DNA of 64,000 nucleotides from an uncultured bacterium (GCA_946407375.1 CAMJNS010000004.1:3480-67479); one strand, 5' to 3'; counted from the stretch's first letter, positions 2,491 to 20,573 are shown. Translations and numbers: made by a program. The notes: generated from the sequence alone by a model not told the origin.

Positions 2491-4548
2491 ATGCAGAAAC
2501 AAATAAATATAAAAAGGCAAAACAAACAAATCCGAGGCATAATATTCCTCGCAATTTTCTATACCTTGTTTCAAATACCCCTTTTTGCATTTGAAGTTTC
2601 TGTTGACACACAAAAATATCCAGTAGAAGTTTACGGTGATTATCTTGAATACCGCACAAAAGATGAACAGGTTATAGCCAAAGGTAAGGCTTTTATTTCA
2701 TATCAAGATATGAAAATAAGCGGTGATAATATTCAAGCAAATACAGGAACAGAAGATATATTCGCACAGGGTGACGTAGACTTTTGGAAAGGCTACGATC
2801 AAGTTAGTGGCGATTTTATAGTATATAATATGAAAACTGGGCGAGGTTGGATGAGAAATGCAGAAGTTAGAAAAAGTCGTAACTATTTCAAAGCAAAAGA
2901 TGTTTATTTGAGTCCAGAACATACTTTGGCTCATGACATAATGCAAACGACCTGTGATAATATTGAACATCCTCATTATCGTTTGGAAGCTAAATTACTA
3001 GAAAGCTATCCAGGTCATTCAATGACAATGGAAGGACTACGTGCTAAATGGCGTGGGAAAACCATTTTTTATCAAGCTATCAATAGAAGCACTGAAAAAG
3101 ATAAAGGCGGAAAATTCTTTACATCTCGTCAGGGGTCTTCAGACATTGATGGTTACTATGTTAAGCTTGCCACAGATTTGTTTGTTAATGATTATTTGTC
3201 AGGTAAGCTTAATTATGATTGGTATGAAAAAAGAGGTTACGGCTATGGTTTCAATGGAACATACTCCGTTCCACACGACAAAGGTAGTGGTTCTCTGTAT
3301 TACTACGGTTTAAGTGAAACCAAAAGAGGACATTACAATAAACAAGTAAACCTTTCATACAATCTTACATTTAAAAGCGGCGAAACTTTTAGCACAACAA
3401 TAAATTATACTGGTGACAGATATAATGGTCAGCCAGAAAACCAGGATATGACTATTACTGCTATGTTCAGACCTGTTTTAAAATTTATTAATATGACAAT
3501 TAATATGAATAAATTTTATGATCTAGACAAGGATAAATATATTCTGGATAAAGCTTACCAATTCGTAAACAGATTGCCAGAAATCAATTTCAGCCTCCCA
3601 GCTTGGACAGCTCCATTAATTCCAATTACTATAAATTTCAGTGGAATGTATGGTCACTATGAAGAAAGTGAAGGCGAAGGGAAAAAAGATACAGAAAAGA
3701 AAGATGGAAGATTGACTTTCAGTTGCCCAGCAATAGAAATTCATCCCAAAACTCAAATAACTCCATCTTATAATTTTGAAAAGAGCTACTATACAGGTGA
3801 TATTGAACGTGAAAATGGTAATACAATGGTTCGCGCCAGCCATAAGTTTTCTAATGTAACAAATCTAGAATTCAACTACAACATCTCTACCTCAAAAGGT
3901 CGCTCACCATTCAAATTTGATAATGTTACAACTATAGATCAGACATCAACCAGACTTAGATTTGCAGAAAACTCCTGGATACTTAATCCTTTAAATTTCA
4001 ACTACAATAGGGCAACTCAAAGACTAGAACAGGTATATTGGGACTATACAAGACGCTCAACTACTGATGCTTACAGACCTTGGGAATTCTTTATGAGAAT
4101 GGATTATGTAGCAGACGCAAATACTCCGTTGTCTAAAATAAATTTTGGTGCTATTAGACCCAATAACTTTAATGCTCGTTACAGAATGTCTTCTCAATAT
4201 TGGTCCTTCGATACCAGTATTTCTGTTCCTCATCAATACAAGAAGATCTCTTCTACTTCTTTCAATTATTCAACAGTTATAAGACCTCTTTGGGCAATAA
4301 ATACATCTGGAACTTATAATAACATTAATCATAAAATGAGTCCTTTAACAATAGGACTTACAAGAGACCTACACTGCTGGGAAGCAAAAGCAGAATACAA
4401 CCACGAACGAAAAGAATTTTGGGTAGAATTCTATCTTAAAGCCTTTCCAAATGATAGTGGCCGCTTCAACTATGGTATGGATGACAATAAGCTTACTGCT
4501 AAACTAGCAGCTTATGACCAAATAGCTCAAAGATACGATAATTACTAA
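2491..4548 (+). CDS. lptD: LPS-assembly outer membrane protein LptD/OstA-like
   Basis: 685 aa. N-terminal hydrophobic signal. OstA-like N-domain (VYGDYLEYRTKDEQVIAKGKAFISYQDMKISGDNIQA...GDVDFW). Long aromatic-rich beta-barrel-like C-terminal part. Confidence 0.6.
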   Translation: MQKQINIKRQNKQIRGIIFLAIFYTLFQIPLFAFEVSVDTQKYPVEVYGDYLEYRTKDEQVIAKGKAFISYQDMKISGDNIQANTGTEDIFAQGDVDFWKGYDQVSGDFIVYNMKTGRGWMRNAEVRKSRNYFKAKDVYLSPEHTLAHDIMQTTCDNIEHPHYRLEAKLLESYPGHSMTMEGLRAKWRGKTIFYQAINRSTEKDKGGKFFTSRQGSSDIDGYYVKLATDLFVNDYLSGKLNYDWYEKRGYGYGFNGTYSVPHDKGSGSLYYYGLSETKRGHYNKQVNLSYNLTFKSGETFSTTINYTGDRYNGQPENQDMTITAMFRPVLKFINMTINMNKFYDLDKDKYILDKAYQFVNRLPEINFSLPAWTAPLIPITINFSGMYGHYEESEGEGKKDTEKKDGRLTFSCPAIEIHPKTQITPSYNFEKSYYTGDIERENGNTMVRASHKFSNVTNLEFNYNISTSKGRSPFKFDNVTTIDQTSTRLRFAENSWILNPLNFNYNRATQRLEQVYWDYTRRSTTDAYRPWEFFMRMDYVADANTPLSKINFGAIRPNNFNARYRMSSQYWSFDTSISVPHQYKKISSTSFNYSTVIRPLWAINTSGTYNNINHKMSPLTIGLTRDLHCWEAKAEYNHERKEFWVEFYLKAFPNDSGRFNYGMDDNKLTAKLAAYDQIAQRYDNY

Positions 4549-10741: not shown

Positions 10742-10987
10742 TCAATTTATATTTGCTTCGTCAAAGTCTTTTTCAGAAATTCCAGTTAAATCCATTATTT
10801 CTTTTTTGTTTTTTCCTTTTAAAAGCATATTTTTAATTATTTCTTTTATTCCTTCTTTTTTACCTTTCTCATAGGCACTTCCGCGCATAAGGCTAAGAGC
10901 TATAAGACTGTTTTCTCTGTCTTCCATTCTTGCACGCATTTCTTTATCTGAATTTGATTTTTTGACACAATTTACAACTTCTGTCAT
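10742..10987 (-). pseudogene. C-terminal remnant of an Rpn-family (PD-(D/E)XK, YhgA-like) recombination-promoting nuclease/putative transposase
   Basis: Tail ..EKGKKEGIKEIIKNMLLKGKNKKEIMDLTGISEKDFDEA resembles Rpn C-termini; far too short for a full gene; matching N-terminal remnant at 11483-11575. Confidence 0.4.
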
Positions 10988-11089
10988 ACCGTCCTCACTT
11001 TCAATTTCAGAAGGTATCTTTGAATCTTTTGAAGCAAATTTCTTACTATTATACAGCAGATAAACCCATTTCTAACAATAATTTTTATT

Positions 11090-11479
11090 CGTCATTGCGA
11101 GCAGTCGTAAGACTGCGTGGCAATCCAGATATTTACTATTTCAAATTATAGAATTTTCCAATATAAATCTACCCAATTAGGATTTAGGCTTTCGATAAGT
11201 TTCAATTTATATTTTCTTGATCTAGCTTTAATTTGTTTTTCTCGTTCAATGGCATTATTGATATTGTCGTATTCCTCAAAATAACCTAACTTATCGACAG
11301 AATATTTTTTAGTAAAACCTTCATATAGTTTATTTTTATGTTCATAGACTCTACGTATTAAATCAGAAGTTGCTCCTGTATAAAGAGTTCCATTTCTTTT
11401 ACTGAACAAGATGTAAATATAACTGTTTTTATTCATATTATTTTTATCTAGATTGCCACGCCTTCGGCTCGCAATGACG
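11090..11479. mobile_element. GIY-YIG cassette bounded by inverted hairpin repeats (candidate small mobile unit)
   Basis: Left end CGTCATTGCGAG-CAGTCGTAAGACTG-CGTGGCAATC (11090-11126). Right end GATTGCCACG-CCTTCGG-CTCGCAATGACG (11451-11479), in inverted orientation. The unit sits between the two remnants of one Rpn-like gene. Confidence 0.4.
11146..11436 (-). CDS. GIY-YIG nuclease family protein (small stand-alone, UPF0213/YhbQ-like)
   Basis: 96 aa; SYIYILFSKRNGTLYTGATSDLIRRVYEHK ... EREKQIK. Confidence 0.88.
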   Translation of the reverse strand: MNKNSYIYILFSKRNGTLYTGATSDLIRRVYEHKNKLYEGFTKKYSVDKLGYFEEYDNINNAIEREKQIKARSRKYKLKLIESLNPNWVDLYWKIL

Positions 11480-11482
11480 TTT

Positions 11483-11575
11483 TTAGTTTAAAGTGTTTTT
11501 ATTAGACTCTTGACCAAAAACAGCTTTGAATAGGAAATCATTTGTTAGTCCAAAAAATTTTGTTTCTTTTTCCAT
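11483..11575 (-). pseudogene. N-terminal remnant of the Rpn-family nuclease gene
   Basis: MEKETKFFGLTNDFLFKAVFGQESNKNTLN* matches the conserved Rpn N-terminus (..TND..FK..FG.E.NK..L); the frame is cut by the hairpin repeat at 11479. Confidence 0.4.
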
Positions 11576-11703: not shown

Positions 11704-11898
11704 GTAAATAAAACCTATGAAAATTTTTGGGATTGCCACGTTACTACGCATACTACGTATGCTTGTAATGACATATGGCTTGCGGTTTCACAATGACGGT
11801 TACGGTAGAGACTAAGGTTTTCTTTGATTCGGTCATCCCTCCGACTTGCTACGCAAGTCACCTCAGCGACTCGCTGACCTCCTGTCGCTCGCTTGCAC
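11704..11898 (+). repeat. ~195-bp direct repeat, copy 1 (copy 2 at 20381-20573)
   Basis: Copies differ only by a 2-nt indel and one substitution that I can see; the repeat contains a GATTGCCACG hairpin module plus further short hairpins. Confidence 0.9.
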
Positions 11899-11952
11899 TC
11901 CCAACCTCCTGTTGGTCGTCTAATCTCTTATCTCTGCTCTCTTTAAAAACTG

Positions 11953-11987
11953 GATTGCCACGGCTTCTACGAAGCCTAGCAATGACG
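11953..11987 (+). repeat. hairpin repeat element (GATTGCCACG-GCTTCTACGAAGC-CTAGCAATGACG)
   Basis: Conserved ends with an element-specific inner 5-6 bp stem. Confidence 0.8.
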
Positions 11988-20380: not shown

Positions 20381-20573
20381 GTAAATAACCTATGAAAATT
20401 TTTGGGATTGCCACGTTACTACGCATACTACGTATGCTCGTAATGACATATGGCTTGCGGTTTCACAATGACGGTTACGGTAGAGACTAAGGTTTTCTTT
20501 GATTCGGTCATCCCTCCGACTTGCTACGCAAGTCACCTCAGCGACTCGCTGACCTCCTGTCGCTCGCTTGCAC
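20381..20573 (+). repeat. ~195-bp direct repeat, copy 2
   Basis: See 11704-11898. Confidence 0.9.

What the first reader, a model, noticed from the sequence alone, without database searches (positions are those of the whole stretch)
11090..11479. GIY-YIG gene bounded by inverted hairpin repeats and sitting inside a disrupted Rpn-like gene: possible autonomous unit of the hairpin-repeat family
The 96-aa GIY-YIG gene (11146-11436) is flanked by two copies of the GATTGCCACG..CTCGCAATGACG element in inverted orientation (11090-11126 and 11451-11479). This gives the 390-bp unit 12-bp perfect outer inverted ends (CGTCATTGCGAG / CTCGCAATGACG). Immediately outside lie an N-terminal remnant (11483-11575, MEKETKFFGLTNDFLFKAVFGQESNKN..) and a C-terminal remnant (10742-10987) of one Rpn-family nuclease gene on the same strand. 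The reading frame is cut exactly at the repeat. This looks like an insertion (plus deletion) of the cassette into that gene. Inference: the small GIY-YIG nuclease may mobilise or maintain the solo hairpin elements scattered elsewhere, by analogy with REP elements and their RAYT transposases. I know of no demonstrated mechanism for this.
Basis: partly seen in the sequence, partly recalled or inferred. Interest (0 to 1): 0.62.

Follow-up and report, generated by a model that had tools for sequence, protein, structure and literature searches.

The report
Ssn nuclease gene with hairpin repeats
The small nuclease gene and its two flanking hairpins belong to the Ssn family, described in 2025, whose enzymes cut single-stranded DNA next to such hairpins. 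In this genome the gene-plus-hairpin unit has replaced the catalytic core of an Rpn toxin gene and left that gene's antitoxin-like tail intact.

Summary
A 96-aa GIY-YIG gene (11146-11436, minus strand) lies between two inverted hairpin repeats whose CGTCATTGCGAGC ends face outwards.

The two neighbouring fragments are the two ends of one Rpn-family gene. A same-genus genome has the intact 302-aa orthologue. About 452 bp of its nuclease core is replaced here by 422 bp: the 390-bp cassette plus a 16-nt linker on each side. There is no target duplication.

This is not a new kind of system. It matches the Ssn/SRM system of Chenal et al. 2025 (PMC11893778). That system is a single-domain GIY-YIG enzyme that binds hairpin repeats (CGTCATT...AATCYRG) in single-stranded DNA and cuts just upstream of them, with repeats on both sides of its own gene.

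New details found here:
- The repeat subtype has a nested, variable inner hairpin. It has about 85 full copies in this genome and escapes the published search motif.
- The same disrupted-Rpn composite is conserved across the genus.
- The Rpn C-terminal part, which resembles the RpnS antitoxin, still appears to be under purifying selection.

Whether Ssn mobilises the repeats is still unproven.

The parts
11146..11436 (-). ssn gene: 96-aa single-domain GIY-YIG nuclease of the Ssn family. The catalytic residues Y8, Y19, R29, H33, E66 and N85 are all present.
   Evidence: PF01541 at E=1.3e-14. 57-88% identical to homologues in many phyla. E=8e-23 and 44% identity to an NTS-flanked Neisseriaceae homologue. 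The named residues are invariant or near-invariant among 83 homologues. dN/dS is 0.04-0.10.
11447..11479 (-). Upstream SRM hairpin (sense on the minus strand): CGTCATTGCGAG-CCGAAGG-CGTGGCAATCTAGA. It ends 10 nt before the ssn ATG.
   Evidence: Predicted DNA fold -4.5 kcal/mol. It has the same 5' CGTCATT and 3' AATCYRG ends as the published NTS.
11090..11129 (+). Downstream SRM hairpin (sense on the plus strand): CGTCATTGCGAG-CAGTCGTAAGACTG-CGTGGCAATCCAGA. It is inverted relative to the upstream copy.
   Evidence: Predicted DNA fold -9.2 kcal/mol: an outer 5-bp stem ATTGC/GCAAT plus a nested inner stem.
11480..11495 (-). 16-nt linker (CACTTTAAACTAAAAA on the minus strand) between the Rpn 5' fragment and the SRM. 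It is not derived from the Rpn gene.
   Evidence: Breakpoint comparison with the intact orthologue L082 and with L001.
11074..11089 (-). 16-nt linker (AATAAAAATTATTGTT on the minus strand) between the SRM and the Rpn 3' fragment. It is conserved in every disrupted copy and in the second copy on contig C11.
11496..11608 (-). Rpn-family gene, 5' fragment (about 37 codons: MHVFLIKRGFLMEKETKFFGLTNDFLFKAVFGQESNK). Its upstream region is homologous to the intact gene up to about 11674.
   Evidence: 96% nt identity to the intact orthologue over 179 nt. The intact gene matches TIGR01784 Rpn at E=2.6e-41.
10742..11073 (-). Rpn-family gene, 3' fragment (last ~109 codons). It corresponds to the RpnS antitoxin-like C-terminal domain. 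An 81-aa ORF runs from the ATG at 10987.
   Evidence: 87% nt identity to the intact orthologue. The frame is open in all disrupted copies and dN/dS is 0.18-0.30. The RpnS concept comes from PMC10400941.
10699..10735 (-). Intrinsic terminator after the Rpn stop codon. It is shared with the intact orthologue's locus.

Best explanation
The 96-aa protein is an Ssn-family enzyme: a single-domain GIY-YIG, site-specific, single-stranded-DNA endonuclease. The GGATTGCCACG...CTCGCAATGACG elements are its cognate Ssn-related motifs (SRMs).

How it works, inferred from characterised homologues: when DNA is single-stranded (incoming transforming or conjugating DNA, replication, repair), the strand that reads CGTCATTGCGAG-[inner hairpin]-CGTGGCAATCYAG folds into a hairpin. 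Ssn binds it with both sequence and structure specificity and cuts a few nucleotides 5' of CGTCAT. The complementary strand is not a substrate. The roughly 85-150 copies in the genome therefore mark sites of strand-specific ssDNA cleavage. That cleavage can restrict or shorten recombining DNA. It may also seed spread of the repeats.

The gene sits between two SRMs in inverted orientation with the CGTCAT ends pointing outwards. This is the family's typical architecture.

Shown here: in an ancestor of this genus, the SRM-ssn-SRM unit with a 16-nt linker on each side replaced about 150 codons (the PD-(D/E)XK nuclease core) of an Rpn toxin-antitoxin gene. What remains is the promoter-proximal ~37 codons and the C-terminal RpnS-like part. 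That part is still open and evolves under constraint, so it probably survives as an orphan antitoxin.

Inferred only: ssn may now be transcribed from the Rpn promoter.
For: Family identity
- GIY-YIG domain.
- Thousands of 90-100-aa homologues.
- 44% identity and E=8e-23 to a Neisseriaceae homologue flanked on both sides by canonical NTS repeats.
- The residues equivalent to the published catalytic mutants Y6/Y17/E64 (here Y8/Y19/E66) are invariant or near-invariant (99-100%) in 83 homologues.
- Strong purifying selection on ssn, dN/dS 0.04-0.10.

Repeat identity
- The 5' CGTCATT and the 3' AATC-CAG (C 72%, A 88%, G 80%) match the NTS consensus CGTCATT...GGGAATCYRG.
- 74 of 85 copies fold with at least 8 bp, and there are 46 different inner segments.
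- Only 15 of 85 copies lie in ORFs of 120 aa or more, although such ORFs cover 90% of the genome.

Link between gene and repeat
- 64 of 80 homologue loci have a correctly oriented hairpin within 150 nt, and 36 of 80 have one on both sides. The published figures are 71% and 42%.
- Ssn-positive genomes of other phyla carry 30-262 copies of the same variant. Pelotomaculum carries only the two copies that flank ssn.
- Within this genus, the two genomes without repeats also lack ssn.

Biochemistry of homologues
- ssDNA-only binding, cleavage upstream of the hairpin, and strand specificity (PMC11893778).

Rpn replacement
-.

RpnS-like retention
-.
Against: - No biochemistry exists for this protein or for this repeat subtype.
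- The published degenerate SRM pattern matches neither flanking element. It finds only 1 site in the genome, against 3-4 expected by chance, so this subtype lies outside the motif as published.
- Direct comparison with N. meningitidis SsnA itself was not possible. CDD cd10448 assignment could not be run.
- Three repeat-bearing genomes of the genus show no ssn. Two of them are 69-78% complete, but one is 96% complete.
- The low dN/dS of the Rpn C fragment could come from gene conversion by intact paralogues. The window copy is visibly mosaic.
Confidence: 0.8

Rival explanations
1. Autonomous transposon. SRM-ssn-SRM would be a minimal insertion sequence whose GIY-YIG nuclease acts as transposase. 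Solo SRMs and gene-less SRM doublets would be its non-autonomous derivatives, as REPINs are for RAYT.
For: - The cassette lies inside a gene for which an intact orthologue exists.
- Ssn and the same SRM variant occur together in unrelated phyla at 64-77% protein identity, which implies joint horizontal transfer.
- Pelotomaculum has only the two flanking SRMs, in a segment that a sister genome lacks.
- An Oscillospiraceae MAG has about 60 gene-less doublets with the same outward-facing ends.
- An SRM-containing block is inserted between two genes that abut in same-genus genomes.
Against: - There is no target-site duplication, and there is no clean empty site. The event here is a replacement with a 452-bp deletion and 16-nt linkers of unknown origin.
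- All disrupted copies share the same junctions, so this is one old event and not recurrent insertion.
- Each strand carries only one sense SRM at the cassette, so an enzyme that cuts only the sense strand cannot release a single strand by two cuts. This is inference.
- The Pelotomaculum insert also carries a toxin-antitoxin pair, so it is not cassette-only.
- GIY-YIG chemistry has no known strand-transfer step.
Confidence: 0.22
2. Coincidental flanking. The hairpins are simply abundant in this island, and the GIY-YIG gene happens to lie between two of them with no functional link.
For: Further copies lie close by at 11730-11798 and 11952-11987, and the region is a repeat-rich variable island.
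Against: - The same arrangement recurs at most of 80 homologue loci in many phyla: 47 upstream and 53 downstream hits in the correct orientation, against 17 and 24 in the opposite orientation.
- Pelotomaculum has exactly two copies, both flanking ssn.
- The published association statistics point the same way.
Confidence: 0.02
3. Free-standing homing endonuclease. The GIY-YIG protein would cut double-stranded Rpn genes and copy itself into them by repair.
For: - It sits inside a gene of a multicopy family.
- The window copy's flanks resemble an intact paralogue more than they resemble other disrupted copies, which hints at recombination among Rpn genes.
Against: - At 96 aa there is no DNA-binding domain, which GIY-YIG homing enzymes need. 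Homologues show no dsDNA activity.
- Homologues elsewhere are intergenic and are not in Rpn genes.
- The Rpn interior is deleted, not interrupted.
Confidence: 0.03
4. The hairpins act mainly at RNA level, as terminators or mRNA stabilisers like REP elements, and the nuclease is unrelated to their maintenance.
For: The copies are intergenic, often just after stop codons, and their inner stems covary.
Against: - No Rfam family matches.
- Most copies have no T-tract.
- SsnA homologues bind the DNA form and not RNA.
- Conservation of the unpaired CGTCAT and CAG ends is not explained by a plain stem-loop role.
Confidence: 0.08

Closest known systems
Ssn nucleases with NTS/SRM hairpin repeats (SsnA of Neisseria meningitidis; CDD cd10448; Chenal et al., Nat Commun 2025, PMC11893778)
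   Same: - A single-domain GIY-YIG protein of about 95 aa with the same catalytic residues.
- A hairpin repeat with a 5' CGTCATT and a 3' AATCYRG.
- Tens to hundreds of copies per genome, mostly intergenic.
- An inverted copy on each side of the gene.
- Distribution across many phyla.
   Different: - The stem is ATTGC/GCAAT with an internal mismatch and a nested, freely varying inner hairpin, where NTS has the simple ATTCCCGCG palindrome.
- The published degenerate SRM pattern does not match it.
- The host is an AT-rich gut or rumen bacterium labelled Riflebacteria, not a proteobacterial symbiont.
- Here the cassette lies inside a disrupted gene.
REP/REPIN elements and their RAYT (IS200/IS605-like HUH) transposases
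   Same: - Short hairpin repeats in high copy.
- A single-copy gene flanked by inverted copies of the repeat.
- Gene-less inverted doublets.
- Recognition of the folded single strand.
   Different: - The enzyme is a GIY-YIG hydrolytic nuclease, not an HUH tyrosine transposase.
- No covalent intermediate or strand transfer is known for it.
- Mobilisation has not been shown.
Rpn (YhgA-like) toxin with intragenic RpnS antitoxin (Zhong et al., PNAS 2023, PMC10400941)
   Same: - The disrupted host gene is a TIGR01784 Rpn-family member.
- Its retained C-terminal part has the four-amino-acid repeat region (a 12-nt indel relative to the intact orthologue) and internal Met codons, as RpnS does.
   Different: - The gene belongs to the PDDEXK_2 branch, not the E. 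coli Transposase_31 branch.
- The toxin core is deleted and replaced by the ssn cassette.
- Translation and antitoxin function of the remnant are untested.

Membership tests
Ssn nuclease family (cd10448) | Single-domain GIY-YIG protein of about 90-100 aa with no extra DNA-binding domain | tested here: met
   The ORF is 96 aa, and PF01541 covers residues 5-75 with no other domain.
Ssn nuclease family (cd10448) | Catalytic Tyr (GIY), Tyr (YIG) and metal-binding Glu, as mutated in SsnA (Y6, Y17, E64) | tested here: met
   Y8 and Y19 are present here and 100% conserved, and E66 is present and 99% conserved, among 83 homologues. R29, H33 and N85 are also invariant.
Ssn nuclease family (cd10448) | Sequence homology to Neisseria SsnA (the paper's criterion is E<1e-10) | tested here: inconclusive
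   E=8e-23 and 44% identity to a Neisseriaceae homologue flanked by canonical NTS repeats (L122). The N. meningitidis protein itself could not be retrieved, and the CDD assignment could not be run.
Ssn nuclease family (cd10448) | Gene flanked by cognate hairpin repeats on both sides | tested here: met
   Inverted copies lie at 11090-11129 and 11447-11479. The same holds in 36 of 80 homologue loci.
Ssn nuclease family (cd10448) | Site-specific cleavage of single-stranded DNA only, next to the hairpin | not testable with these tools
   This needs purified protein and oligonucleotide assays. It has been shown only for four homologues.
SRM / NTS repeat | Oriented element: conserved 5' CGTCAT(T), hairpin core, conserved 3' AATCYRG | tested here: met
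   Consensus of 82-85 genomic copies. Predicted folds.
SRM / NTS repeat | Match to the published degenerate pattern HGTCWYN(0-2)YYVSBRHN(0-5)WNVSBRGN(0-2)RNCYNB | tested here: not met
   Neither flanking element matches. The genome has 1 match, against 3-4 in simulated sequence. This is a limit of the search pattern and not of the biology.
SRM / NTS repeat | High copy number, far above chance, mostly outside genes | tested here: met
   85 full copies against about 3 expected, and 146 terminal 12-mers. 18% of copies fall in long ORFs that cover 90% of the genome.
Rpn family (TIGR01784) for the disrupted host gene | Both fragments derive from one full-length Rpn gene | tested here: met
   The intact 302-aa orthologue L082 scores 142 bits against a cut-off of 52, and aligns to both fragments and to the flanking non-coding DNA.
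Insertion sequence / transposon | Target-site duplication, or a precise empty site compared with the occupied site | tested here: not met
   452 bp was replaced by 422 bp with no duplication. The Pelotomaculum comparison is not cassette-only.

The most novel reading that the evidence does not exclude
SRM-ssn-SRM is a self-mobilising element of a transposon class built on a roughly 95-aa GIY-YIG single-strand nuclease, with solo SRMs and gene-less doublets as its miniature derivatives. In this lineage it destroyed an Rpn toxin and now forms a stable three-part module with that gene: Rpn promoter, then ssn, then an orphan RpnS antitoxin.
Probability: 0.2. Interest if true: 0.7.

Novelty: new member of a known kind. 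Interest (0 to 1): 0.3.

Why it matters
The finding is mainly a re-discovery of a system published in 2025, so its value is incremental.
- It extends the Ssn/SRM pairing to another phylum.
- It identifies a widespread repeat subtype, CGTCATTGCGAG...GCAATC with a nested variable hairpin, that the published search pattern misses. Published counts of how many Ssn genes have cognate repeats are therefore probably underestimates.
- It gives a mapped case in which the cassette replaced the interior of an identifiable gene. This is circumstantial evidence for the authors' untested idea that the cassette is, or once was, mobile.
- It links two systems that shape genome plasticity. An Rpn toxin lost its nuclease core to the cassette, while its antitoxin-like tail stayed under constraint.

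Tried and rejected
- Searching NTS-rich Neisseriaceae genomes with the window protein found nothing. The Pfam model found only UvrC and a UPF0213-type protein there. A bridge through the Neisseriaceae MAG homologue then worked.
- No supplementary files of the Ssn paper are held, so accession lists could not be checked.
- PDB gave only a weak hit to UPF0213 BH0048 for Ssn, and nothing for the Rpn protein. PADLOC and NCBIfam have no specific Ssn model.
- Rfam has no family for the hairpins.
- A literal search of the literature for the repeat sequence returned only unrelated primer matches.
- Two searches for a clean empty site did not give a cassette-only or SRM-only boundary. At solo SRMs in same-genus genomes I found one composite insertion and one unalignable intergenic region. 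At the Pelotomaculum cassette the extra segment also contains a toxin-antitoxin pair.
- The consensus promoter scan found no sigma-70-like site upstream of ssn.
- The 20 nt upstream of the solo repeats are only AT-rich and not conserved, so the 16-nt linkers are not a regular part of the repeat.

Full report
**1. What is in the sequence**

The minus strand between 11436 and 11146 encodes a 96-aa protein with a GIY-YIG domain (PF01541, E=1.3e-14). It is bracketed by two copies of a hairpin element in inverted orientation.
- On the plus strand, 11090-11129 reads CGTCATTGCGAG-CAGTCGTAAGACTG-CGTGGCAATCCAGA.
- On the minus strand, 11479-11447 reads CGTCATTGCGAG-CCGAAGG-CGTGGCAATCTAGA.

The outer 13 nt are perfectly complementary and the inner 17 nt are 94% complementary. 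With DNA parameters each element folds into an outer 5-bp ATTGC/GCAAT stem, a mismatch, and a nested inner stem (-9.2 and -4.5 kcal/mol).

The element is far above chance.
- In the window there are 12 near-matches to the terminal 12-mer, against 1.6 expected.
- In the 2.97-Mb draft genome (33.7% G+C) there are 146.
- There are 85 full elements, against about 3 in simulated sequence.
- Of these, 74 fold with at least 8 bp, and they carry 46 different inner segments.
- Only 15 of 85 lie inside ORFs of 120 aa or more, although such ORFs cover 90% of the genome.
- The conserved ends are CGTCAT at the 5' side and AATC-CAG at the 3' side. The 20 nt upstream are only AT-rich.

**2. The flanking gene fragments**

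A genome of the same genus (G005; its gyrA is 88.7% identical at nucleotide level) carries an intact 302-aa orthologue. This is L082, which matches TIGR01784 Rpn at 142 bits, E=2.6e-41.
- The window aligns to it from the 5' untranslated region down to 11496 (96% identity).
- It aligns again from 11073 through the stop codon and the terminator (87% identity).
- Between these points, 452 bp of the gene (about 150 codons, the PD-(D/E)XK core) is replaced by 422 bp. These are a 16-nt linker, the 390-bp cassette, and a second 16-nt linker.
- There is no target-site duplication, and the linkers match neither the gene nor the sequence next to solo repeats.

The same composite, with the same junctions, occurs elsewhere.
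- It is in G005 itself (L001, 78% nt over 849 bp).
- It is in several gut or rumen metagenome contigs (79-81%), in different neighbourhoods.
- A further copy of the repeat plus the C fragment, without ssn, lies on contig C11.

So the disruption is one old event that has since been carried around, not a recent insertion. The window's C fragment is a mosaic. Its last ~130 nt are almost identical to the intact G005 gene, while the part next to the cassette shares a 12-nt deletion with the other disrupted copies. This points to recombination among Rpn paralogues.

**3. What the system is**

A literature search found Chenal et al. 2025 (PMC11893778). They describe Ssn, a family of single-domain GIY-YIG proteins (CDD cd10448; SsnA of N. 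meningitidis is 94 aa).
- These proteins bind a hairpin repeat only when the DNA is single-stranded, and cut a few nucleotides upstream of it. The complementary strand, duplex DNA and RNA are not substrates.
- The repeat is NTS, CGTCATTCCCGCGMAVGCGGGAATCYRG, generalised as SRM.
- The repeats occur in hundreds of copies and flank the ssn gene. 71% of homologues have at least one repeat nearby, and 42% have one on both sides.
- In Neisseria the system lowers transformation by DNA that carries the repeat.
- The authors note that NTS-ssnA-NTS looks like an insertion sequence and compare it with RAYT/REP, but they do not show mobility.

**4. Membership tests**

Protein:
- Thousands of homologues of 90-100 aa exist.
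- 80 loci from many phyla are 57-88% identical to the window protein.
- A Neisseriaceae homologue that is itself flanked on both sides by canonical NTS repeats gives E=8e-23 and 44% identity.
- The residues that correspond to the published catalytic mutants (here Y8, Y19, E66), and also R29, H33 and N85, are invariant or near-invariant among 83 homologues.
- dN/dS of ssn between the window and its closest relatives is 0.04-0.10.

Repeat:
- The oriented ends and the hairpin match NTS.
- 64 of 80 homologue loci have a hairpin with a 5' GTCAT-type end in the correct orientation within 150 nt, and 36 of 80 have one on both sides. That is 47 upstream and 53 downstream hits, against 17 and 24 in the opposite orientation.

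One formal test fails. The paper's degenerate SRM pattern matches neither flanking element and finds only 1 site in this genome, against 3-4 expected. The reason is that the stem here begins TGCGAG, where the pattern requires pyrimidines. This subtype is nevertheless common. Ssn-positive genomes of other phyla carry the following copy numbers.

| Genome | Copies of the variant |
|---|---|
| Neisseriaceae MAG | 262 |
| Oscillospiraceae MAG | 127 |
| Cyanobacterium | 126 |
| Five further genomes | 55, 39, 32, 30 and 5 |
| Pelotomaculum terephthalicicum | 2 (the pair that flanks ssn) |
| One further Ssn-positive genome | 0 |

I could not retrieve N. meningitidis SsnA itself or run the CDD assignment.

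**5.

- Census of paralogues. The genome has one Ssn-type gene. A second GIY-YIG gene on C17 is 35% identical, of the UPF0213/YhbQ type, and has no repeats. It is a different subfamily and does not bear on the hypothesis.
- Repeat number against gene presence, within the genus. The two repeat-free genomes lack ssn, and two of the five repeat-bearing genomes have it.

| Genome | Strict repeat matches | ssn | Completeness |
|---|---|---|---|
| G000 | 31 | present | 86% |
| G001 | 58 | not found | 78% |
| G003 | 23 | not found | 96% |
| G004 | 10 | not found | 69% |
| G005 | 21 | present | 95% |
| G002 | 0 | not found | 97% |
| G006 | 0 | not found | 96% |

- Outside the genus the variant is essentially absent in 34 relatives.
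- Insertion point: mapped as described in section 2.

**6. Mechanism**

By homology, the protein should bind the folded sense strand of each repeat and cut just 5' of CGTCAT.

In the cassette the two sense copies lie on opposite strands, with their cut sites outside the cassette. A strictly sense-specific enzyme could therefore not release one strand by two cuts, as IS200/IS605 transposases do. The geometry is that of RAYT genes between inverted REPs. This is my inference.

Evidence for past movement is circumstantial:
- the replacement inside Rpn;
- joint horizontal spread of the gene and its cognate repeat across phyla;
- gene-less doublets with the same outward-facing ends;
- the two-copy state in Pelotomaculum, within a segment absent from a sister genome, although that segment also holds a toxin-antitoxin pair;
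- a ~190-nt hairpin block that includes an SRM, inserted between two genes that abut in same-genus genomes.

None of these gives a clean boundary.

**7. An added observation**

Rpn genes are toxin-antitoxin 'genes within genes'. The C-terminal domain, RpnS, is translated separately and blocks the nuclease. It varies by four-amino-acid repeats (PMC10400941).
- The fragment retained here is that part.
- It is open in every disrupted copy. It evolves with dN/dS 0.18-0.30 at dS 0.6-1.0.
- It differs from the intact orthologue by one 12-nt repeat unit.

It is probably kept as an orphan antitoxin. Gene conversion from intact paralogues is the alternative explanation.

**8. Verdict**

This is a new member of the known Ssn/SRM kind, with a repeat subtype outside the published motif. 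Its genomic setting is informative but does not prove mobility.

Noticed in passing
window 10742-10987 (minus strand): The retained Rpn C-terminal fragment looks like a stand-alone RpnS-type antitoxin. Its frame is open in all disrupted copies, dN/dS is 0.18-0.30, and it differs from the intact orthologue by a 12-nt (four-residue) repeat unit.
   Followed up: partly
own genome C11:37834-38084: A second copy of the downstream SRM, the 16-nt linker and the first ~70 codons of the Rpn C fragment (83% aa identity). It has no ssn gene and sits among other repeat types.
   Followed up: partly
L001 (= G005:C176) about 2990-3030: In the same-genus genome the ssn start codon is followed by an A9 run with 2 extra bases, which puts the ATG out of frame. 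Databases annotate an 87-aa product that lacks the GIY strand. This could be a pseudogene, an assembly error or slippage-prone expression.
   Followed up: no
whole own genome: The SRM search pattern published by Chenal et al. finds 1 site here, whereas an adapted pattern finds 85. This repeat subtype would have been scored as absent by the published pipeline.
   Followed up: yes
G104 (Oscillospiraceae MAG holding L004): About 60 regularly spaced pairs of the same repeat variant (plus copy at x, minus copy at about x+90). These are gene-less ~115-nt doublets with outward CGTCAT ends, like REPINs.
   Followed up: no
L002 2892-4019 (Pelotomaculum terephthalicicum JT): The only two copies of the repeat in that genome flank ssn. 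The 1.1-kb segment that holds them plus a small toxin-antitoxin pair is missing between the same neighbours in a sister genome (G134).
   Followed up: partly
own genome C1:96964-97141: A ~190-nt block of several unrelated GC-rich hairpins plus an SRM separates two genes. In G005 and G003 the stop and start codons of those genes abut (12-14 nt apart).
   Followed up: partly
window 11730-11798 and 11952-11987: Further SRM copies, one of them composite with two ATGACG ends, lie just upstream of the Rpn fragment. All are in the orientation of the 11447-11479 copy. They are part of a 195-bp block repeated at 20381-20573.
   Followed up: no
own genome C17:17827-18060: The second GIY-YIG gene, of the UPF0213/YhbQ type (GKGAKYTR motif), has no hairpin repeats around it.
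   Followed up: yes
own genome, many contigs (e.g. C5:44289-44338, C8:11104-11154, C11:37651-37701): Frequent tail-to-tail pairs of two different repeat subfamilies (GGATCGCCACG..CTCGCGATGACG and CGTCATTGCGAGCGATAGCGTGGCGTTGCTGAAAGCAAAACGAAGTCCATC) have inward-facing CGTCAT ends about 27 nt apart. This is the opposite geometry to the ssn cassette.
   Followed up: no
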